Made by a program: the position numbers and the translations under genes. A stretch of 64,000 nucleotides of DNA, from assembly GCA_965249885.1 (NCBI GenBank), contig OZ252254.1, forward strand, positions 252,013 to 316,012, written 5' to 3'. Of the stretch, positions 3,833 through 47,710 are shown in pieces. This DNA comes from Pedobacter sp. Lineage in GTDB: Bacteria; Bacteroidota; Bacteroidia; Sphingobacteriales; Sphingobacteriaceae. Numbering within the stretch: the first letter of the stretch is position 1; each line of letters starts with the position of its first letter. A model generated the notes under the pieces. That model saw only the letters and a list, made by a program, of their open reading frames with translations, was not told the DNA's origin and searched no databases.

Positions 3833-4678
3833 ATGAATACGCAAGAAGAGCTGAATTATGCAAGAATTGCCAAAGCAATTGAGTATATAAAAACGCATTT
3901 TAAAGATCAACCCAACTTGGATGATGTGGCAGAGCATGTAAATTTAAGTCCGTTCCATTTCCAACGCTTATTTACGGAATGGGCTGGCACTAGTCCGAAG
4001 AAATTTTTGCAATATGTGAGTGTAAATTATGCTAAGCAACTGCTAACAACGCAAAAGGCAACCTTATTTGACACTGCCTTCGAAACCGGATTATCGGGCA
4101 CCAGTCGCCTACACGATTTATTTGTGAACATTGAGGGAATGACACCTGCAGAGTATAAGAATGGCGGTTCCGAACTTGACATCAACTTTAGCTTGAATGC
4201 CACAAAATTTGGTAATTTATTAACGGCTGCCACTCCAAAAGGTGTTTGCTACATGGCGTTTTATGAAGATGAAACCACAGCAATTAACCTGCTAAAAGCA
4301 AAATTTCCTAAAGCACACTTTCACCTTAAAATAGATGATTTGCAGCAGAATGCGATGTTAATATTCAAGGAAGATTGGAGTAACCTGCCTGAAATTAAAT
4401 TACACTTAAAAGGAACGGATTTTCAATTGAAGGTTTGGGAGGCGCTGCTTAAAATTCCGATGGGACAGTTGGCAACCTACGGCAAACTAGCACATGAAAT
4501 TGGCAATGTGAATGCATCAAGGGCGGTTGGAACAGCTATTGGGAGTAACCCGGTTGCTTTTTTAATTCCTTGCCACAGGGTGATCCAAAGTAGTGGTAAT
4601 TTTGGAGGTTACATGTGGGGCAATACACGCAAAACAGCGATTATTGGCTGGGAGCAGGCGGTGGTTGGTAATCAGTGA
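3833..4678 (+). CDS. ada: AraC-HTH plus methylated-DNA--protein-cysteine methyltransferase (Ada-like)
   Basis: N-terminal AraC HTH (LSPFHFQRLFTEWAGTSP); C-terminal IPCHRVI active site. Confidence 0.9.
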   Translation: MNTQEELNYARIAKAIEYIKTHFKDQPNLDDVAEHVNLSPFHFQRLFTEWAGTSPKKFLQYVSVNYAKQLLTTQKATLFDTAFETGLSGTSRLHDLFVNIEGMTPAEYKNGGSELDINFSLNATKFGNLLTAATPKGVCYMAFYEDETTAINLLKAKFPKAHFHLKIDDLQQNAMLIFKEDWSNLPEIKLHLKGTDFQLKVWEALLKIPMGQLATYGKLAHEIGNVNASRAVGTAIGSNPVAFLIPCHRVIQSSGNFGGYMWGNTRKTAIIGWEQAVVGNQ

Positions 4679-4725
4679 ACAGGAATCAGGGGTCAGGAGT
4701 CAGGAGTCAGTGATCGGTGATCAGT
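4661..4725 (+). repeat. Heptamer tandem array, G-rich (9 units)
   Basis: GTGGTTG GTAATCA GTGAACA GGAATCA GGGGTCA GGAGTCA GGAGTCA GTGATCG GTGATCA in strict 7-nt phase, running through the ada stop codon. Confidence 0.85.
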
Positions 4726-4761
4726 ACCTAGATATCGATGTTCAGTAGAAGGATTATTTTT

Positions 4762-4769
4762 TAAATTTG
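4762..4769 (+). promoter_or_regulatory. -7 promoter element (TAAATTTG) for the four-helix-bundle gene
   Basis: Exact TAnnTTTG 17 nt before the ATG at 4787; no clear -33 TTTG. Confidence 0.5.
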
Positions 4770-4786
4770 GAAATCAGCATTAACCT

Positions 4787-5134
4787 ATGGCTATAAAATG
4801 TTTTGAAGATATTGTGGCTTGGCAAAAGGCACAAGACTTTTCTGTATTTATTTACAAGAGTTTTGGAAATTTAAAAGATTGGGATTTCCGAAGTCAAATA
4901 TGTAGAGCGTCAGTTTCGATTTCCAACAATATTGCAGAAGGGTTTGACAGAGGCACAAAACCGGAGTTTAAGCGATTTTTGTATATCAGTTTGGCTTCGA
5001 CAAGTGAAGTAAAATCAATGTTGTACCTTGCCAAAAGGTTAAATTATGTTGATGAGATCACTTTTATAACTTTGCTTTCTCAAGCACAGGAAATTTCAAA
5101 AATAACCAACGGACTTATCAAATCGATTGCCTGA
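4787..5134 (+). CDS. Four helix bundle protein (23S rRNA IVP / Avd-like family)
   Basis: FEDIVAWQKA, QICRASVSISNNIAEG, EFKRFLYISLAS..E family signature; 115 aa. Confidence 0.9.
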   Translation: MAIKCFEDIVAWQKAQDFSVFIYKSFGNLKDWDFRSQICRASVSISNNIAEGFDRGTKPEFKRFLYISLASTSEVKSMLYLAKRLNYVDEITFITLLSQAQEISKITNGLIKSIA

Positions 5135-5182
5135 TACCTAACACCTAACACCTAACCACTAATACCTAACCCCTAACCCTAA
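5131..5182 (+). repeat. Heptamer tandem array, C/A-rich (7 units)
   Basis: CTGATAC CTAACAC CTAACAC CTAACCA CTAATAC CTAACCC CTAACCC from the stop codon of 4787..5134 almost to the alkB ATG. Confidence 0.9.
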
Positions 5183-5185
5183 AAA

Positions 5186-5794
5186 ATGACCTTATTCACC
5201 AATATCCAAGACGCTTCAAAAAACTTTCTTCCTAAAGACGGTGTTGTAAATTACTACGGCACAATTTTCAGCAAAGCTGAAGCTGATATTTACTATAAAA
5301 AATTGTTAGAGGAAATTGCTTGGGAAAACGATCAGGCGGTGATTTTCGGCAAATTGATTATCACCAAACGTAAAGTGGCTTGGTACGGCGAAAAGCCTTT
5401 TCAATACACCTATTCCAACATCACTAAAACCGCACTACCTTGGACAGAAGAGCTACTAGCCTTAAAAAATAAGGCTGAAGAACTTTCTGGGGAAACTTTC
5501 AACTCCTGCTTACTAAACCTTTACCACAACGGCAGCGAAGGCATGGCTTGGCACAGCGATGCAGAAAAAGATTTGAAAAAAGACGGCGCTATTGCCTCTT
5601 TAAGCTTTGGAGCGGAAAGAAAATTTGCCCTTAAGCACAAAGAAGATAAAACAACCGTTTCGCTGTTTTTGGAACACGGTAGCTTACTGATCATGAAAGG
5701 CACGACACAAACGCATTGGCTTCACAGGTTACCGCCTACCAAGTTGGTAAGCAAACCGAGAATCAATTTGACATTTAGAACGATTGTGGGGTGA
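5186..5794 (+). CDS. alkB: Alpha-ketoglutarate-dependent dioxygenase AlkB (ALKBH2/3-like)
   Basis: NSCLLNLY, HSD (HxD), HRLP, RINLTFR motifs. Confidence 0.92.
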   Translation: MTLFTNIQDASKNFLPKDGVVNYYGTIFSKAEADIYYKKLLEEIAWENDQAVIFGKLIITKRKVAWYGEKPFQYTYSNITKTALPWTEELLALKNKAEELSGETFNSCLLNLYHNGSEGMAWHSDAEKDLKKDGAIASLSFGAERKFALKHKEDKTTVSLFLEHGSLLIMKGTTQTHWLHRLPPTKLVSKPRINLTFRTIVG

Positions 5795-30334: not shown

Positions 30335-30411
30335 CCAACTGTTAACTGAAAACTGTTAATCGAAAACTGAAAACTGTTAACTGAAAACTGCCTACTGAAA
30401 ACCGTTAGCTG
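30335..30411. repeat. Heptamer tandem array NNAACTG (11 units)
   Basis: CCAACTG TTAACTG AAAACTG TTAATCG AAAACTG AAAACTG TTAACTG AAAACTG CCTACTG AAAACCG TTAGCTG; the last unit contains the metZ stop. Confidence 0.9.
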
Positions 30412-31578: not shown

Positions 31579-31662
31579 AAGTATCTAGATTTAAGTATTG
31601 ATTATTAAGACAGTATAACGAGTACAAGTTTTTAATCTTGATACTCGATACTTATTACTTGT
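31579..31662. repeat. Inverted heptamer arrays filling the osmC-metZ spacer
   Basis: aagtatc tagattt aagtatt... facing tcttgat actcgat acttatt acttgtt. Confidence 0.6.
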
Positions 31663-32077: not shown

Positions 32078-32140
32078 TAGTATTGGGTATTGAGATGTGA
32101 GATGTGAGACCTTATGCCCTAAATCTCATGTCCAATACCT
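32078..32140. repeat. Inverted heptamer arrays filling the ispE-osmC spacer
   Basis: TAGTATT GGGTATT GAGATGT GAGATGT GAGACCT facing AAATCTC ATGTCC AATACCT. Confidence 0.7.
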
Positions 32141-32943: not shown

Positions 32944-32949
32944 CTTTTT

Positions 32950-33104
32950 GATTTTAGATTGTAGAAGTACGATTTTAGATTTAATTTAAACACAAAGACA
33001 CAAAGAGCATTAAGTTTTGAATTTTTATGTCTATGGCAACGAAGATACGAAGAGCACCAAACTTTCAGACTTACAAATCTAAAATCGTGACTCGTAAATC
33101 ACTA
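32950..33104. repeat. Inverted heptamer arrays enclosing two 8-bp doublets
   Basis: GATTTTA GATTGTA GAAGTAC GATTTTA left, aaatctaaaatcgtgactcgtaaatc right; inside, cacaaaga x2 and acgaaga(t/g) x2. Confidence 0.65.
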
Positions 33105-47029: not shown

Positions 47030-47115
47030 TGGTTGTTTGGTTCATTGGCCATTGGGCATTGGTTCATTGGTTTTTGATTGTTGATTATTGATTATTGATT
47101 GTTGATTGTTGACTA
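47030..47115. repeat. G/T-rich heptamer arrays
   Basis: CATTGGC CATTGGG CATTGGT, then TTGATTG TTGATTA TTGATTA TTGATTG TTGATTG TTGACTA. Confidence 0.85.
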
Positions 47116-47147
47116 GAAAGCAATTTCAGTTTTCCAAACGTTCCTGT

Positions 47148-47248
47148 AGTCCCGCTTTTCGTTGCAATCTTTTTGTCAACGGCAATGCAAAACTTAAGAA
47201 GTTTTCAACCATACTGCTTCAAAAAGTATTTCCACTGCAATCGGGTTT
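47148..47248. repeat. AAACCCGA...GCGGGRCT family element, reverse orientation
   Basis: agtcccgctttt...caatcgggttt termini. Confidence 0.6.
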
Positions 47249-47283
47249 TGAGCACTTCAACCTTTGCACAGCACTTACATTTT

Positions 47284-47370
47284 AAACCCGACATTAGCGG
47301 ATACCGGCCATGTGGTTAAGGCCAAGCGTGGCCTTGGGCAGGCAGCGCAGTATGAGCGTTTGGCGGGGCT
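47284..47370. repeat. AAACCCGA...GCGGGRCT family element, forward orientation
   Basis: aaacccga...gcggggct termini; internal aaggcca-agcg-tggcctt hairpin. Confidence 0.55.
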
Positions 47371-47436
47371 GTACTTTAATAGCAGCAATGCAACTGCTTT
47401 TCTAAAACGAATAACTAACTTCTAATAACTAATACC

Positions 47437-47481
47437 TGTCACCTGATATGTAAGACAGATCCCTCGGAACTCGGGATGACA
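47437..47481. repeat. TGTC-tagged REP-like element
   Basis: tgtca...agatccctcggaactcgggatgaca, with terminal tgtca/tgaca. Confidence 0.5.
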
Positions 47482-47534
47482 TAATGCATAAAACAAAAAA
47501 TACTTCCACTGCATTGACAACTACATTTCTCGAA

Positions 47535-47646
47535 CTAACAACTAACAACTAACCACTAACCACTAATACCTAACAACTGATCCCTAATACCTAACCACTA
47601 ACTCCTAATACCTAACCACTAATACCTAATCCCTTACACCTATCCA
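47535..47646. repeat. C/A-rich heptamer tandem array CTRAYNN (16 units)
   Basis: CTAACAA CTAACAA CTAACCA CTAACCA CTAATAC CTAACAA CTGATCC CTAATAC CTAACCA CTAACTC CTAATAC CTAACCA CTAATAC CTAATCC CTTACAC CTATCCA; 5 more units at 47415-47449. Confidence 0.92.
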
Positions 47647-47710
47647 CTAAAAACACTTTGCGTTAATTATTTTTTTCGTTTCTTTGTAGTCGCATTTTTA
47701 AAAAATACAC

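What the first reader, a model, noticed from the sequence alone, without database searches (positions are those of the whole stretch)
4661..5185. Four-helix-bundle (IVP/Avd-like) gene bracketed by inverted telomere-like heptamer arrays: candidate mobile cassette
Seen: 9 G-rich 7-mers (reverse complement CTGAYNN) start inside the ada stop region, and 7 C/A-rich CTRAYNN 7-mers run from this gene's stop almost to the alkB ATG. The two arrays are the same motif family facing each other like terminal inverted repeats. The gene has its own TAAATTTG promoter element inside the bracket and splits an otherwise natural ada-alkB pair. Known: the protein family includes the 23S rRNA intervening-sequence protein and is structurally related to the DGR accessory protein Avd; dispersed heptamer arrays (STRR) are known from filamentous cyanobacteria. 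Inference: gene plus inverted arrays form a unit that is gained or lost at operon junctions, and the protein may bind the repeats or their RNA. No recombinase or reverse transcriptase is in this window, so any mechanism is unproven.
Basis: partly seen in the sequence, partly recalled or inferred. Interest (0 to 1): 0.78.

Follow-up and report, generated by a model that had tools for sequence, protein, structure and literature searches.

The report
Four-helix-bundle gene in heptamer-armed palindrome
A small, intact gene of the "rRNA intervening-sequence protein" family sits between two DNA-repair genes inside a palindrome built from mirror-image runs of 7-base repeats; gene and arms are gained, decayed and lost as one piece in related bacteria, and the arms look maintained at the DNA level, not as an RNA stem.

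Summary
A 9-unit G-rich heptamer array (4664-4726) overlaps the ada stop codon. A 7-unit CCTAAC-type array (5135-5183) runs from the stop of the four-helix-bundle (IVP) gene to 3 nt before the alkB ATG.

The 511-bp insert is a discrete cassette in this Pedobacter genome:
- G050 has an empty 12-nt junction.
- G004 keeps both arms but has lost most of the gene.
- G021 carries the gene in the opposite orientation.

All 11 IVP loci of the genome lie between co-directional genes and are flanked by inverted short-period arms whose sequence differs from locus to locus. I saw the same layout in 5 Pedobacter relatives, across Bacteroidota and Balneolota, and on 5 of 5 cyanobacterial plasmids sampled.

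Three results bear on mechanism:
- **No RNA signature.** Arm mismatches show no wobble excess (G·U 86, A·C 90), while terminators of the same genome show 168 to 22.
- **Fixed polarity.** The G-rich arm comes first in 81 cassettes and the C-rich arm in 3.
- **Conserved core.** An AG/CT step recurs every 7 bp.

I read the arms as DNA-level, oriented repeats, possibly protein binding sites, not a selected RNase III stem. This copy's arms have drifted to 26 of 35 complementary positions.

Earlier notes of this scan describe the same cassette class on many other genomes. I found no paper linking the gene family to the arrays.

The parts
3833..4678 (+). ada-like gene (AraC-type HTH plus O6-methylguanine methyltransferase DNA-binding domain); its last codons and stop lie inside the left array
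   Evidence: ORF. Pfam PF01035 1.2e-29 and PF12833 5.5e-17. The C-terminus differs from relatives exactly where the array starts.
4664..4726 (+). Left arm: 9 G-rich heptamers (consensus GTCAGGA / ATCAGGN)
   Evidence: TRF rows 4671-4724, period 7 and 21; register printed.
4727..4786 (+). AT-rich spacer holding TAAATTTG (4762-4769), a match to the Bacteroidota -7 promoter consensus TAnnTTTG
   Evidence: Sequence. The motif is not enriched upstream of IVP genes in general: 9 of 143 against 7 expected.
4787..5134 (+). Intact four-helix-bundle gene (115 aa; PF05635 / TIGR02436, 23S rRNA IVS protein family)
   Evidence: Pfam 1.1e-30; NCBIfam 6e-30. PDB 2GSC E 1e-9. AlphaFold2 pLDDT 97 with four helices; Foldseek 2GSC TM 0.89. 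dN/dS 0.10 against the G021 ortholog.
5135..5183 (+). Right arm: 7 C/A-rich heptamers (CACCTAA / CCCCTAA), the inverted counterpart of the left arm at 26 of 35 positions
   Evidence: TRF rows 5136-5182, period 7, 14 and 21, scores 59-69; arm alignment.
5186..5794 (+). alkB (2OG-Fe(II) oxygenase), downstream partner of the split ada-alkB pair
   Evidence: ORF; PF13532 4.1e-34. It lies 7-45 nt from ada in several relatives.

Best explanation
Window 4664-5183 is one copy of a widespread cassette. An IVP-family four-helix-bundle gene lies in the 'loop' of a DNA palindrome whose two arms are inverted arrays of 7-bp units.

**Shown**
- It was inserted into a formerly tight ada-alkB junction in the ancestor of a four-species Pedobacter clade.
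- It is intact here, with the protein under purifying selection.
- It lies in the opposite orientation in G021.
- It is reduced to arms plus 15 codons in G004.
- It is gone in G050.

**Inferred**
- The arms work at the DNA level as oriented, multi-site terminal repeats, not as an RNA stem kept for pairing.
- They keep Watson-Crick complementarity symmetrically on both strands.
- They have a fixed polarity, with the G-rich arm first.
- They carry a conserved AG (left arm) / CT (right arm) step every 7 bp. This is what repeated binding sites for one protein would look like.
- The most economical candidate for that protein is the pentameric, basic IVP protein encoded between the arms.
- The gene is expressed mainly by read-through from the host operon.
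- Movement is rare. Cassettes persist vertically for very long times, and they decay into gene-less heptamer hairpins.
- In this copy the arms have already drifted apart.
For: **Unit and local history**
- Junction states in relatives and the Ada+AlkB tree group (G000, G021, (G004 relic, G050 empty)), with supports 86/93 and 82/81.
- IVP dN against G021 is 0.18, like Ada (0.159) and AlkB (0.165); omega is 0.10.
- Two G000 copies, at the mreB-mreC and proC junctions, are 75% identical over gene plus arms, and the homology ends at the arms.
- L032 and L034 are 82% identical proteins at different junctions of one operon.

**Association with arrays and operon junctions**
- 8 of 11 IVP loci have a heptamer array within 300 nt, against 9.1% of other genes.
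- 11 of 11 lie between co-directional genes and 10 of 11 are co-oriented with them.
- 6 of 9 intact copies are in the top 1% for flank inverted repeats.

**Locus-specific pairing of arms**
- The true partner arm ranks first in 20 of 37 cassettes and in the top 3 in 29 of 37.

**DNA level, not RNA level**
- Arm mismatches are G·U 86 and A·C 90 in 89 cassettes.
- Gene-less hairpins give 12 to 11 and 23 to 27.
- Terminator-like hairpins of the same genome, scored the same way, give 168 to 22.

**Polarity and phase**
- 81 cassettes are G-first and 3 are C-first.
- An unbiased phase alignment gives A 0.80 / G 0.95 in left arms and C 0.80 / T 0.95 in right arms. Information content is 3.45 and 3.68 bits against a null of 2.74 +/- 0.2.
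- AG occurs in 53 of 57 consensus heptamers.

**Generality and protein**
- The same layout appears in 5 relatives, in 52 non-Pedobacter loci and on 5 of 5 cyanobacterial plasmids.
- Median pI of the proteins is 8.6.
- The nearest solved structures, 2GSC and 2RLD, each have five chains.
Against: - No transposase, recombinase or reverse transcriptase is adjacent.
- No target-site duplication is visible.
- The IVP copies within one genome are only 19-42% identical, so recent transposition is rare.
- One subfamily has stayed in the fatty-acid oxidation operon across Bacteroidota and Balneolota. That looks more like a resident functional module than a mobile element.
- The wobble test could be blurred by unit slippage and register shifts in arrays.
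- G-first polarity could partly reflect a preference for G-poor leaders. Solo arrays upstream of starts are C-rich in 74 cases and G-rich in 26.
- No binding data exist.
- This copy's arms are only 74% complementary, yet the gene is intact.
- The arms do pair in the predicted RNA fold. Any well-matched copy would still be a generic RNase III substrate.
Confidence: 0.5

Rival explanations
1. This is an RNA-level, IVS-like element. The arms pair in the operon transcript, RNase III cuts the stem, and the IVP mRNA is released or the host message is restored in space, as in 23S rRNA intervening sequences.
For: - It has the same protein family and the same layout and size as the Coxiella IVS: 428-444 nt, a 28-bp terminal stem and an RNase III cut in mid-stem.
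- Cassettes are co-oriented with operons.
- The arms pair in both the MFE and the centroid fold of this copy.
Against: - There is no excess of G·U over A·C mismatches (86 to 90), while terminators in the same genome show 168 to 22.
- The fold energy of this copy is ordinary (z = -0.74).
- Two cassettes lie antisense to their operons.
Confidence: 0.2
2. The hairpin came first. Inverted heptamer hairpins are an independent junction element (host feature or MITE-like repeat). IVP genes are secondary tenants that insert into, or are exchanged between, such hairpins by recombination through the arms.
For: - At the mreB-mreC junction about 20 of 30 Pedobacter genomes have a 60-90 nt gene-less heptamer hairpin, and only 5 have the IVP gene inside similar arms.
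- G000 has dozens of gene-less heptamer hairpins.
- Arm motif types recur at 2-20 loci.
- A YbjQ gene and an IscU gene are also bracketed by such arrays.
Against: - The G004 relic shows directly that a gene-less hairpin can arise from an IVP cassette by internal deletion.
- Empty ada-alkB junctions carry no hairpin at all.
- Arms travel with the gene in paralogs.
- IVP genes are 0.3% of genes but fill most of the gene-sized loops.
Confidence: 0.15
3. This is a cis-regulatory RNA-binding module. The IVP pentamer binds the AG repeats of the left arm in the mRNA, in the manner of TRAP binding spaced (G/U)AG triplets. It thereby tunes its own translation or that of the downstream gene. Complementarity of the arms is a by-product.
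For: - An AG step recurs at a 7-nt phase in left arms across subfamilies.
- The protein is under purifying selection and shows phylum-deep synteny in one operon.
- Published TAACTGA heptamer repeats lie just upstream of start codons.
Against: - It does not explain why whole heptamers, not only AG, are complementary between arms.
- It does not explain gene-less hairpins.
- There are no binding data.
Confidence: 0.1
4. The association is chance or compositional: AT-rich spacers happen to contain 7-periodic runs next to a small gene.
For: This copy's arm complementarity alone is unremarkable (rank 523 of 3891).
Against: - 192 real TRF rows against 3 simulated.
- Fisher p 7e-7 for the association.
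- Matched arms score far above mismatched arms.
- The pattern recurs in other phyla.
Confidence: 0.01

Closest known systems
ORF-bearing intervening sequences (IVS) of 23S rRNA genes (Coxiella burnetii, Leptospira; S23p protein; PMC4990558)
   Same: It has the same protein family in the loop, terminal inverted repeats, and a total size of about 430-510 nt. The mode of spread is unknown, and the ORF is often decaying.
   Different: - It sits between protein genes, not in helix 25 or 45 of 23S rRNA.
- The arms are heptamer arrays.
- The arms show no RNA wobble signature.
- RNase III excision is untested here.
Inverted GGGAATC heptamer arrays of Xanthomonas (PMC4692102), TAACTGA repeats of Beggiatoaceae, Cyanobacteria and Bacteroidetes (PMC4679880), and cyanobacterial STRR heptamers
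   Same: These are tandem 7-nt units in intergenic spacers. They often lie just upstream of start codons, and in Xanthomonas about 70 convergent (inverted) pairs were reported.
   Different: Those papers name no gene family inside or beside the arrays. Here the arrays bracket IVP genes and are gained and lost with them.
Avd, the accessory protein of diversity-generating retroelements (PDB 4DWL, 8UB7)
   Same: It has the same four-helix-bundle fold (TM 0.78). By published work it is a pentameric, basic, nucleic-acid-binding protein.
   Different: Identity is only 10-12%. No reverse transcriptase gene is adjacent, and template/variable repeats were not looked for.
MITEs, REP/BIME and Rickettsia palindromic elements; transposons with multiple subterminal binding repeats (Ac/Ds, Mu, Tn7; my own knowledge)
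   Same: These are small palindromic inserts at gene junctions with presence/absence polymorphism and gene-less derivatives. They have oriented repeated motifs at both ends.
   Different: No transposase is known and no target duplication is seen. Arm sequence is specific to each locus, with no genome-wide consensus, and the copies are old and divergent.

Membership tests
PF05635 / TIGR02436 (23S rRNA IVS protein, four helix bundle protein) | Full-length HMM match above the curated cut-off | tested here: met
   Pfam 106.4 bits against a cut-off of 33.8; TIGR02436 103.7 bits against 24.
PF05635 / TIGR02436 (23S rRNA IVS protein, four helix bundle protein) | Up-down four-helix bundle like the solved members 2GSC and 2RLD | tested here: met
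   AlphaFold2 model with pLDDT 97 and four helices. Foldseek TM is 0.89 to 2GSC and 0.83 to 2RLD.
PF05635 / TIGR02436 (23S rRNA IVS protein, four helix bundle protein) | Homopentameric assembly | not testable with these tools
   2GSC and 2RLD each hold five chains. PMC4990558 cites a homopentamer. No multimer model was made.
23S rRNA intervening sequence (IVS) | Inserted in a 23S rRNA helix (25 or 45) | tested here: not met
   The insert lies between ada and alkB. Rfam finds no rRNA in the window.
23S rRNA intervening sequence (IVS) | Terminal complementary sequences forming a stable stem | tested here: inconclusive
   This copy has 26 of 35 positions complementary. Its arms pair in the fold, but z is -0.74. 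Other copies are clearly complementary.
23S rRNA intervening sequence (IVS) | Excision from the transcript by RNase III | not testable with these tools
The wobble test argues against selection for an RNA stem.
Diversity-generating retroelement (Avd role) | Adjacent reverse transcriptase gene | tested here: not met
   The neighbouring ORFs are ada, alkB, a 184-aa ORF without a Pfam match, and a DEAD-box helicase. A genome-wide RT search could not be run.
Diversity-generating retroelement (Avd role) | Template and variable repeat pair | not tested
   No search for TR/VR was made.
TIR transposon / MITE | Terminal inverted repeats delimiting the unit | tested here: met
   Homology between paralogs and orthologs ends at the arms. 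Matched arms pair best.
TIR transposon / MITE | Target-site duplication | tested here: inconclusive
   None is seen at ada-alkB or between paralogs. However, the flanks are about 80% diverged and the arms abut the stop and start codons.
TIR transposon / MITE | Transposase (own or in trans) and several near-identical copies | tested here: not met
   The only ORF is the 115-aa IVP. Genome copies are 19-42% identical, and the best pair is 75% at the DNA level.
Heptamer SSR / STRR-type arrays | Tandem 7-nt units, at least 3 copies, in an intergenic spacer | tested here: met
   TRF finds 4.4-6.9 copies. The genome holds 230 such arrays, against 3 high-scoring rows in simulation.
REP/BIME | One genome-wide palindromic consensus | tested here: not met
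   Arm sequences differ from locus to locus. Motif families hold 2-20 loci. RAYT was not searched.

The most novel reading that the evidence does not exclude
IVP proteins are the long-sought partners of bacterial heptamer repeats. Each pentamer recognises the oriented AG/CT-phased 7-bp units of its own arms. Together they form a minimal, transposase-less palindromic DNA element. Its gene-less decay products are the heptamer hairpins and arrays that litter operon junctions, and the rRNA IVS is one special case of it.
Probability: 0.25. Interest if true: 0.85.

Novelty: new variant of a known kind. Interest (0 to 1): 0.6.

Why it matters
The IVP/S23p family has had no known function since the 1990s. 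The excess of heptamer repeats in bacterial genomes is also unexplained. A consistent physical link between the two gives concrete oligonucleotides to test against a small, easily purified protein. That link now has a local history of gain, decay and loss, and sequence evidence that the arms are kept at the DNA level with a fixed polarity and a phased AG/CT core. It also changes how rRNA intervening sequences should be seen. They may be one landing place of a general cassette that mostly lives in ordinary operons, including cas operons and a fatty-acid oxidation operon where it has stayed across a whole phylum.

Tried and rejected
- **Stop codons.** I tested whether heptamer arms supply stop codons in all three frames. 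The effect is weak: left arm 0.64 against 0.52 shuffled, right arm 0.45 against 0.39. Dropped.
- **Own promoter.** TAnnTTTG is not enriched upstream of IVP genes (9 of 143 against 7 expected).
- **'Arms keep polarity when the gene is inverted' (G021).** I first took this as evidence for inversion between the arms. It is trivially true of any inverted repeat, so it cannot tell an inner inversion from an opposite insertion.
- **Heptamer hairpins as a general feature of all operon junctions.** About 20% of tandem spacers have a strong hairpin, but only about 12 of 545 strong hairpins have clearly 7-periodic arms at strict settings, and 74 spacers qualify at loose ones.
- **Profile scan of genome contigs with a 13-protein alignment.** This failed because no stretch was conserved enough. 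A single protein was used instead.
- **Formal covariation counts on orthologous arms.** Not attempted, because arrays slip and duplicate. The matched-versus-mismatched test was used instead.
- **Other libraries.** No match in phage records and no PADLOC defence family.
- **Strain variation.** Two further assemblies with the identical protein have identical arrays, so no array variation was seen.
  - The look-up of sequencing runs closed, so no transcript evidence was obtained.
  - The genome search closed, so RT and RNase III presence, and IVP-versus-hairpin counts across genomes, were not tested.
Full report
**What is there**

The window lies at 252013-316012 of a 4.57-Mb, 38.9% G+C single-contig genome. 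Record titles of close relatives place it in Pedobacter.

Three co-directional ORFs fill 3833-5794:
- an ada-like gene (AraC HTH plus methyltransferase DNA-binding domain);
- a 115-aa PF05635/TIGR02436 four-helix-bundle gene (E 1e-30 and 6e-30);
- alkB.

Tandem Repeats Finder reports period-7 arrays at 4671-4724 and 5136-5182. In register there are 9 G-rich units containing the ada stop, and 7 CCTAA-type units running from the IVP stop to 3 nt before the alkB ATG.

High-scoring arrays of period 7, 14 or 21 number 192 in the genome against 3 in a third-order Markov simulation.

For this copy the arms are the same motif family in inverted orientation, but only 26 of 35 positions are complementary. 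The flank inverted-repeat score is unremarkable (rank 523 of 3891). The RNA fold pairs the arms, but its energy is ordinary (z = -0.74).

**The protein**

- Sequence search finds the solved family members 2GSC and 2RLD, each with five chains.
- An AlphaFold2 model (pLDDT 97, four helices) superposes on 2GSC at TM 0.89. It superposes on the DGR protein Avd at TM 0.78 with 10-12% identity.
- It is basic: pI 8.9, against a family median of 8.6.
- Thirteen diverse copies share Q37, R40, S44, F61 and E74.
- Against its G021 ortholog, dN is 0.18 and dN/dS is 0.10. The dN of the flanking Ada and AlkB is 0.159 and 0.165. The gene is thus maintained and has been co-inherited with its neighbours.

**Local history**

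I fetched the alkB neighbourhood from 30 Pedobacter genomes.
- Distant relatives have ada and alkB 7-45 nt apart, or other genes between them.
- G050 has a 12-nt spacer with no array.
- G004 has a 172-nt remnant: both arms, the AT-rich spacer, the first 13 codons and the last few codons of IVP. This is an internal deletion.
- G021 has the full cassette with the gene on the opposite strand (72% identity).
- This genome has the intact co-oriented copy.

An Ada+AlkB tree groups these four genomes (86/93) and pairs G004 with G050 (82/81). The simplest history is one gain, then gene loss in G004 and complete loss in G050. Support is moderate.

The orientation difference in G021 cannot be assigned to inversion or to separate insertion, because an inverted repeat looks the same after either.

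**Genome-wide pattern**

- PF05635 matches 11 places in the genome. Two carry internal stop codons, one of these is also truncated, and one more is a short fragment.
- Eight of the 11 have a heptamer-family array within 300 nt, against 9.1% of other genes (Fisher p 7e-7).
- Read directly, each of the ten loci whose flanks could be read on both sides has inverted short-period arms, with a different unit at each locus.
- All 11 lie between co-directional genes and 10 are co-oriented with them.
- Six of nine intact copies are in the top 1% of all genes for flank inverted repeats.
- In 37 cassettes from six Pedobacter genomes, the true partner arm is the best match in 20 and among the best three in 29.

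Two observations show gene and arms moving together:
- The copies at the mreB-mreC and proC junctions are 75% identical over gene plus arms, and the homology stops at the arms.
- L032 and L034 (82% identical proteins, similar arms) sit on different sides of the thiolase gene.

**Gene-less hairpins**

At the mreB-mreC junction, 5 of 30 genomes carry the IVP cassette. About 20 carry a 60-90 nt hairpin of inverted heptamers with no gene. Paired changes such as ACG:CGT to GAG:CTC separate the types.

This genome has dozens of such hairpins, several of them in the window. Arm motif types recur at 2-20 loci. The G004 relic shows one route by which they arise.

**Depth and breadth**

- Relatives of the best-scoring genome copy were found in 80 species. 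In 56 of these the gene lies beside the thiolase of the fatty-acid oxidation operon, from Pedobacter to Flavobacteriia, Bacteroidales and Balneolota.
- Arms are 7-periodic in 46 of 52 non-Pedobacter loci. This cassette is an ancient vertical resident.
- Relatives of the window's own IVP in other families are not near ada or alkB, but mostly have heptamer arms.
- Five of five cyanobacterial plasmid copies examined have inverted arrays. Two sit inside cas operons.

**RNA or DNA**

I aligned the arms with a scoring scheme blind to mismatch type.
- On the IVP sense strand there are 86 G·U and 90 A·C mismatches in 89 cassettes. By locus, 28 have more G·U and 32 have more A·C.
- Gene-less hairpins give 12 to 11 and 23 to 27.
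- Terminator-like hairpins of the same genome, also scored blind to mismatch type, give 168 to 22.

The arms therefore lack the signature of an RNA stem under selection. Complementarity is symmetric between strands. Slippage and register shifts in arrays may blur this test.

**Polarity and phase**

- The 5' arm is G-rich in 81 cassettes and C-rich in 3. For an inverted repeat this holds on either strand, so it is an intrinsic orientation of the units towards the centre.
- An unbiased phase alignment of consensus heptamers gives AG in left arms and CT in right arms, above shuffled controls.
- AG occurs in 53 of 57 consensus units.
- AGT and ACT recur in phase at period 7 but not at periods 5, 6, 8 or 9.
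- A preference for G-poor leaders may contribute, because solo arrays upstream of starts are C-rich in 74 of 100 non-tied cases.

**Reading**

These features fit oriented, repeated DNA sites at both ends of a unit, as in transposons with several subterminal binding sites (my own knowledge). The encoded pentameric basic protein is the obvious candidate binder. No enzyme for movement is known, no target duplication is seen, and long vertical persistence shows that movement is rare. Well-matched copies would still form double-stranded RNA when transcribed, so RNase III cleavage may happen without being the selected function.

**Literature**

- The Coxiella IVS paper describes the same protein family within a 28-bp terminal stem cut by RNase III. 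It mentions the old idea that the ORF served mobility.
- Inverted GGGAATC arrays in Xanthomonas and TAACTGA repeats upstream of start codons are described without any gene family.
- Searches combining the family names with heptamers found nothing further.
- Earlier notes of this scan report the same cassette class on several hundred other windows. I treated them as leads and re-tested the core claims here.

**Limits**

- Gene calls are my own ORF-based approximation.
- Many sampled loci are related by descent.

Noticed in passing
window 47037-47650: A Flavo-1 RNA (RF01705, 47144-47252, minus strand, 50.6 bits) lies between divergent fbaA and accD. It is flanked by a TTGATTG-type array (47037-47112) and long CTAAY-type arrays (47402-47434, 47533-47650). 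These arrays are not complementary to each other.
   Followed up: partly
window 31579-31662, 32078-32140, 32945-33104; also 30337-30411: Three consecutive gene junctions (metZ-osmC-ispE-DUF1287 run) each hold a gene-less pair of inverted heptamer-like arrays. An AACTGAA array follows at 30337-30411.
   Followed up: partly
G000:C1 whole genome (outside window): Besides the heptamer family there is a second family of tandem arrays with period 8, 16 or 24: 41, 32 and 28 TRF rows with score >= 50, against none in simulation.
   Followed up: no
G000:C1:1203569-1203871, 2026142-2026435, 2739940-2740269, 922118-922441 (outside window): Small GIY-YIG genes (PF01541) are each bracketed by their own, non-heptamer inverted or direct repeats. 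The one at 922118 lies between two copies of the 3' part of a tRNA-like sequence.
   Followed up: partly
G000:C1:3051782-3052159 and 3744883-3745233 (outside window): A PDDEXK_3 (GxxExxY-type) gene and a DUF559 gene also sit between inverted repeats at gene junctions. Several families of small nuclease-like genes therefore share the 'gene in a palindrome' layout.
   Followed up: partly
L091-L170 (80 species): One IVP subfamily is tied to the thiolase / acyl-CoA dehydrogenase operon in 56 of 80 loci across Bacteroidota and Balneolota. It lies either upstream or downstream of the thiolase gene.
   Followed up: partly
L201 (Anabaena sp. 90 pANA02), L202 (Picosynechococcus PCC 7003 plasmid): IVP cassettes with inverted arrays are wedged between cas6 and cas4, and between cas10 and cmr3, in cyanobacterial CRISPR-cas operons.
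   Followed up: no
G000:C1:1699867-1700050 (outside window): Three copies of an ATCGTAAAT-type array lie exactly 76 nt apart. This looks like a tandem array of hairpin elements.
   Followed up: no
L207 (Logan contig): An independent short-read assembly of the same sequence breaks exactly inside the right heptamer array. Such arrays are therefore likely under-represented in draft genomes.
   Followed up: no
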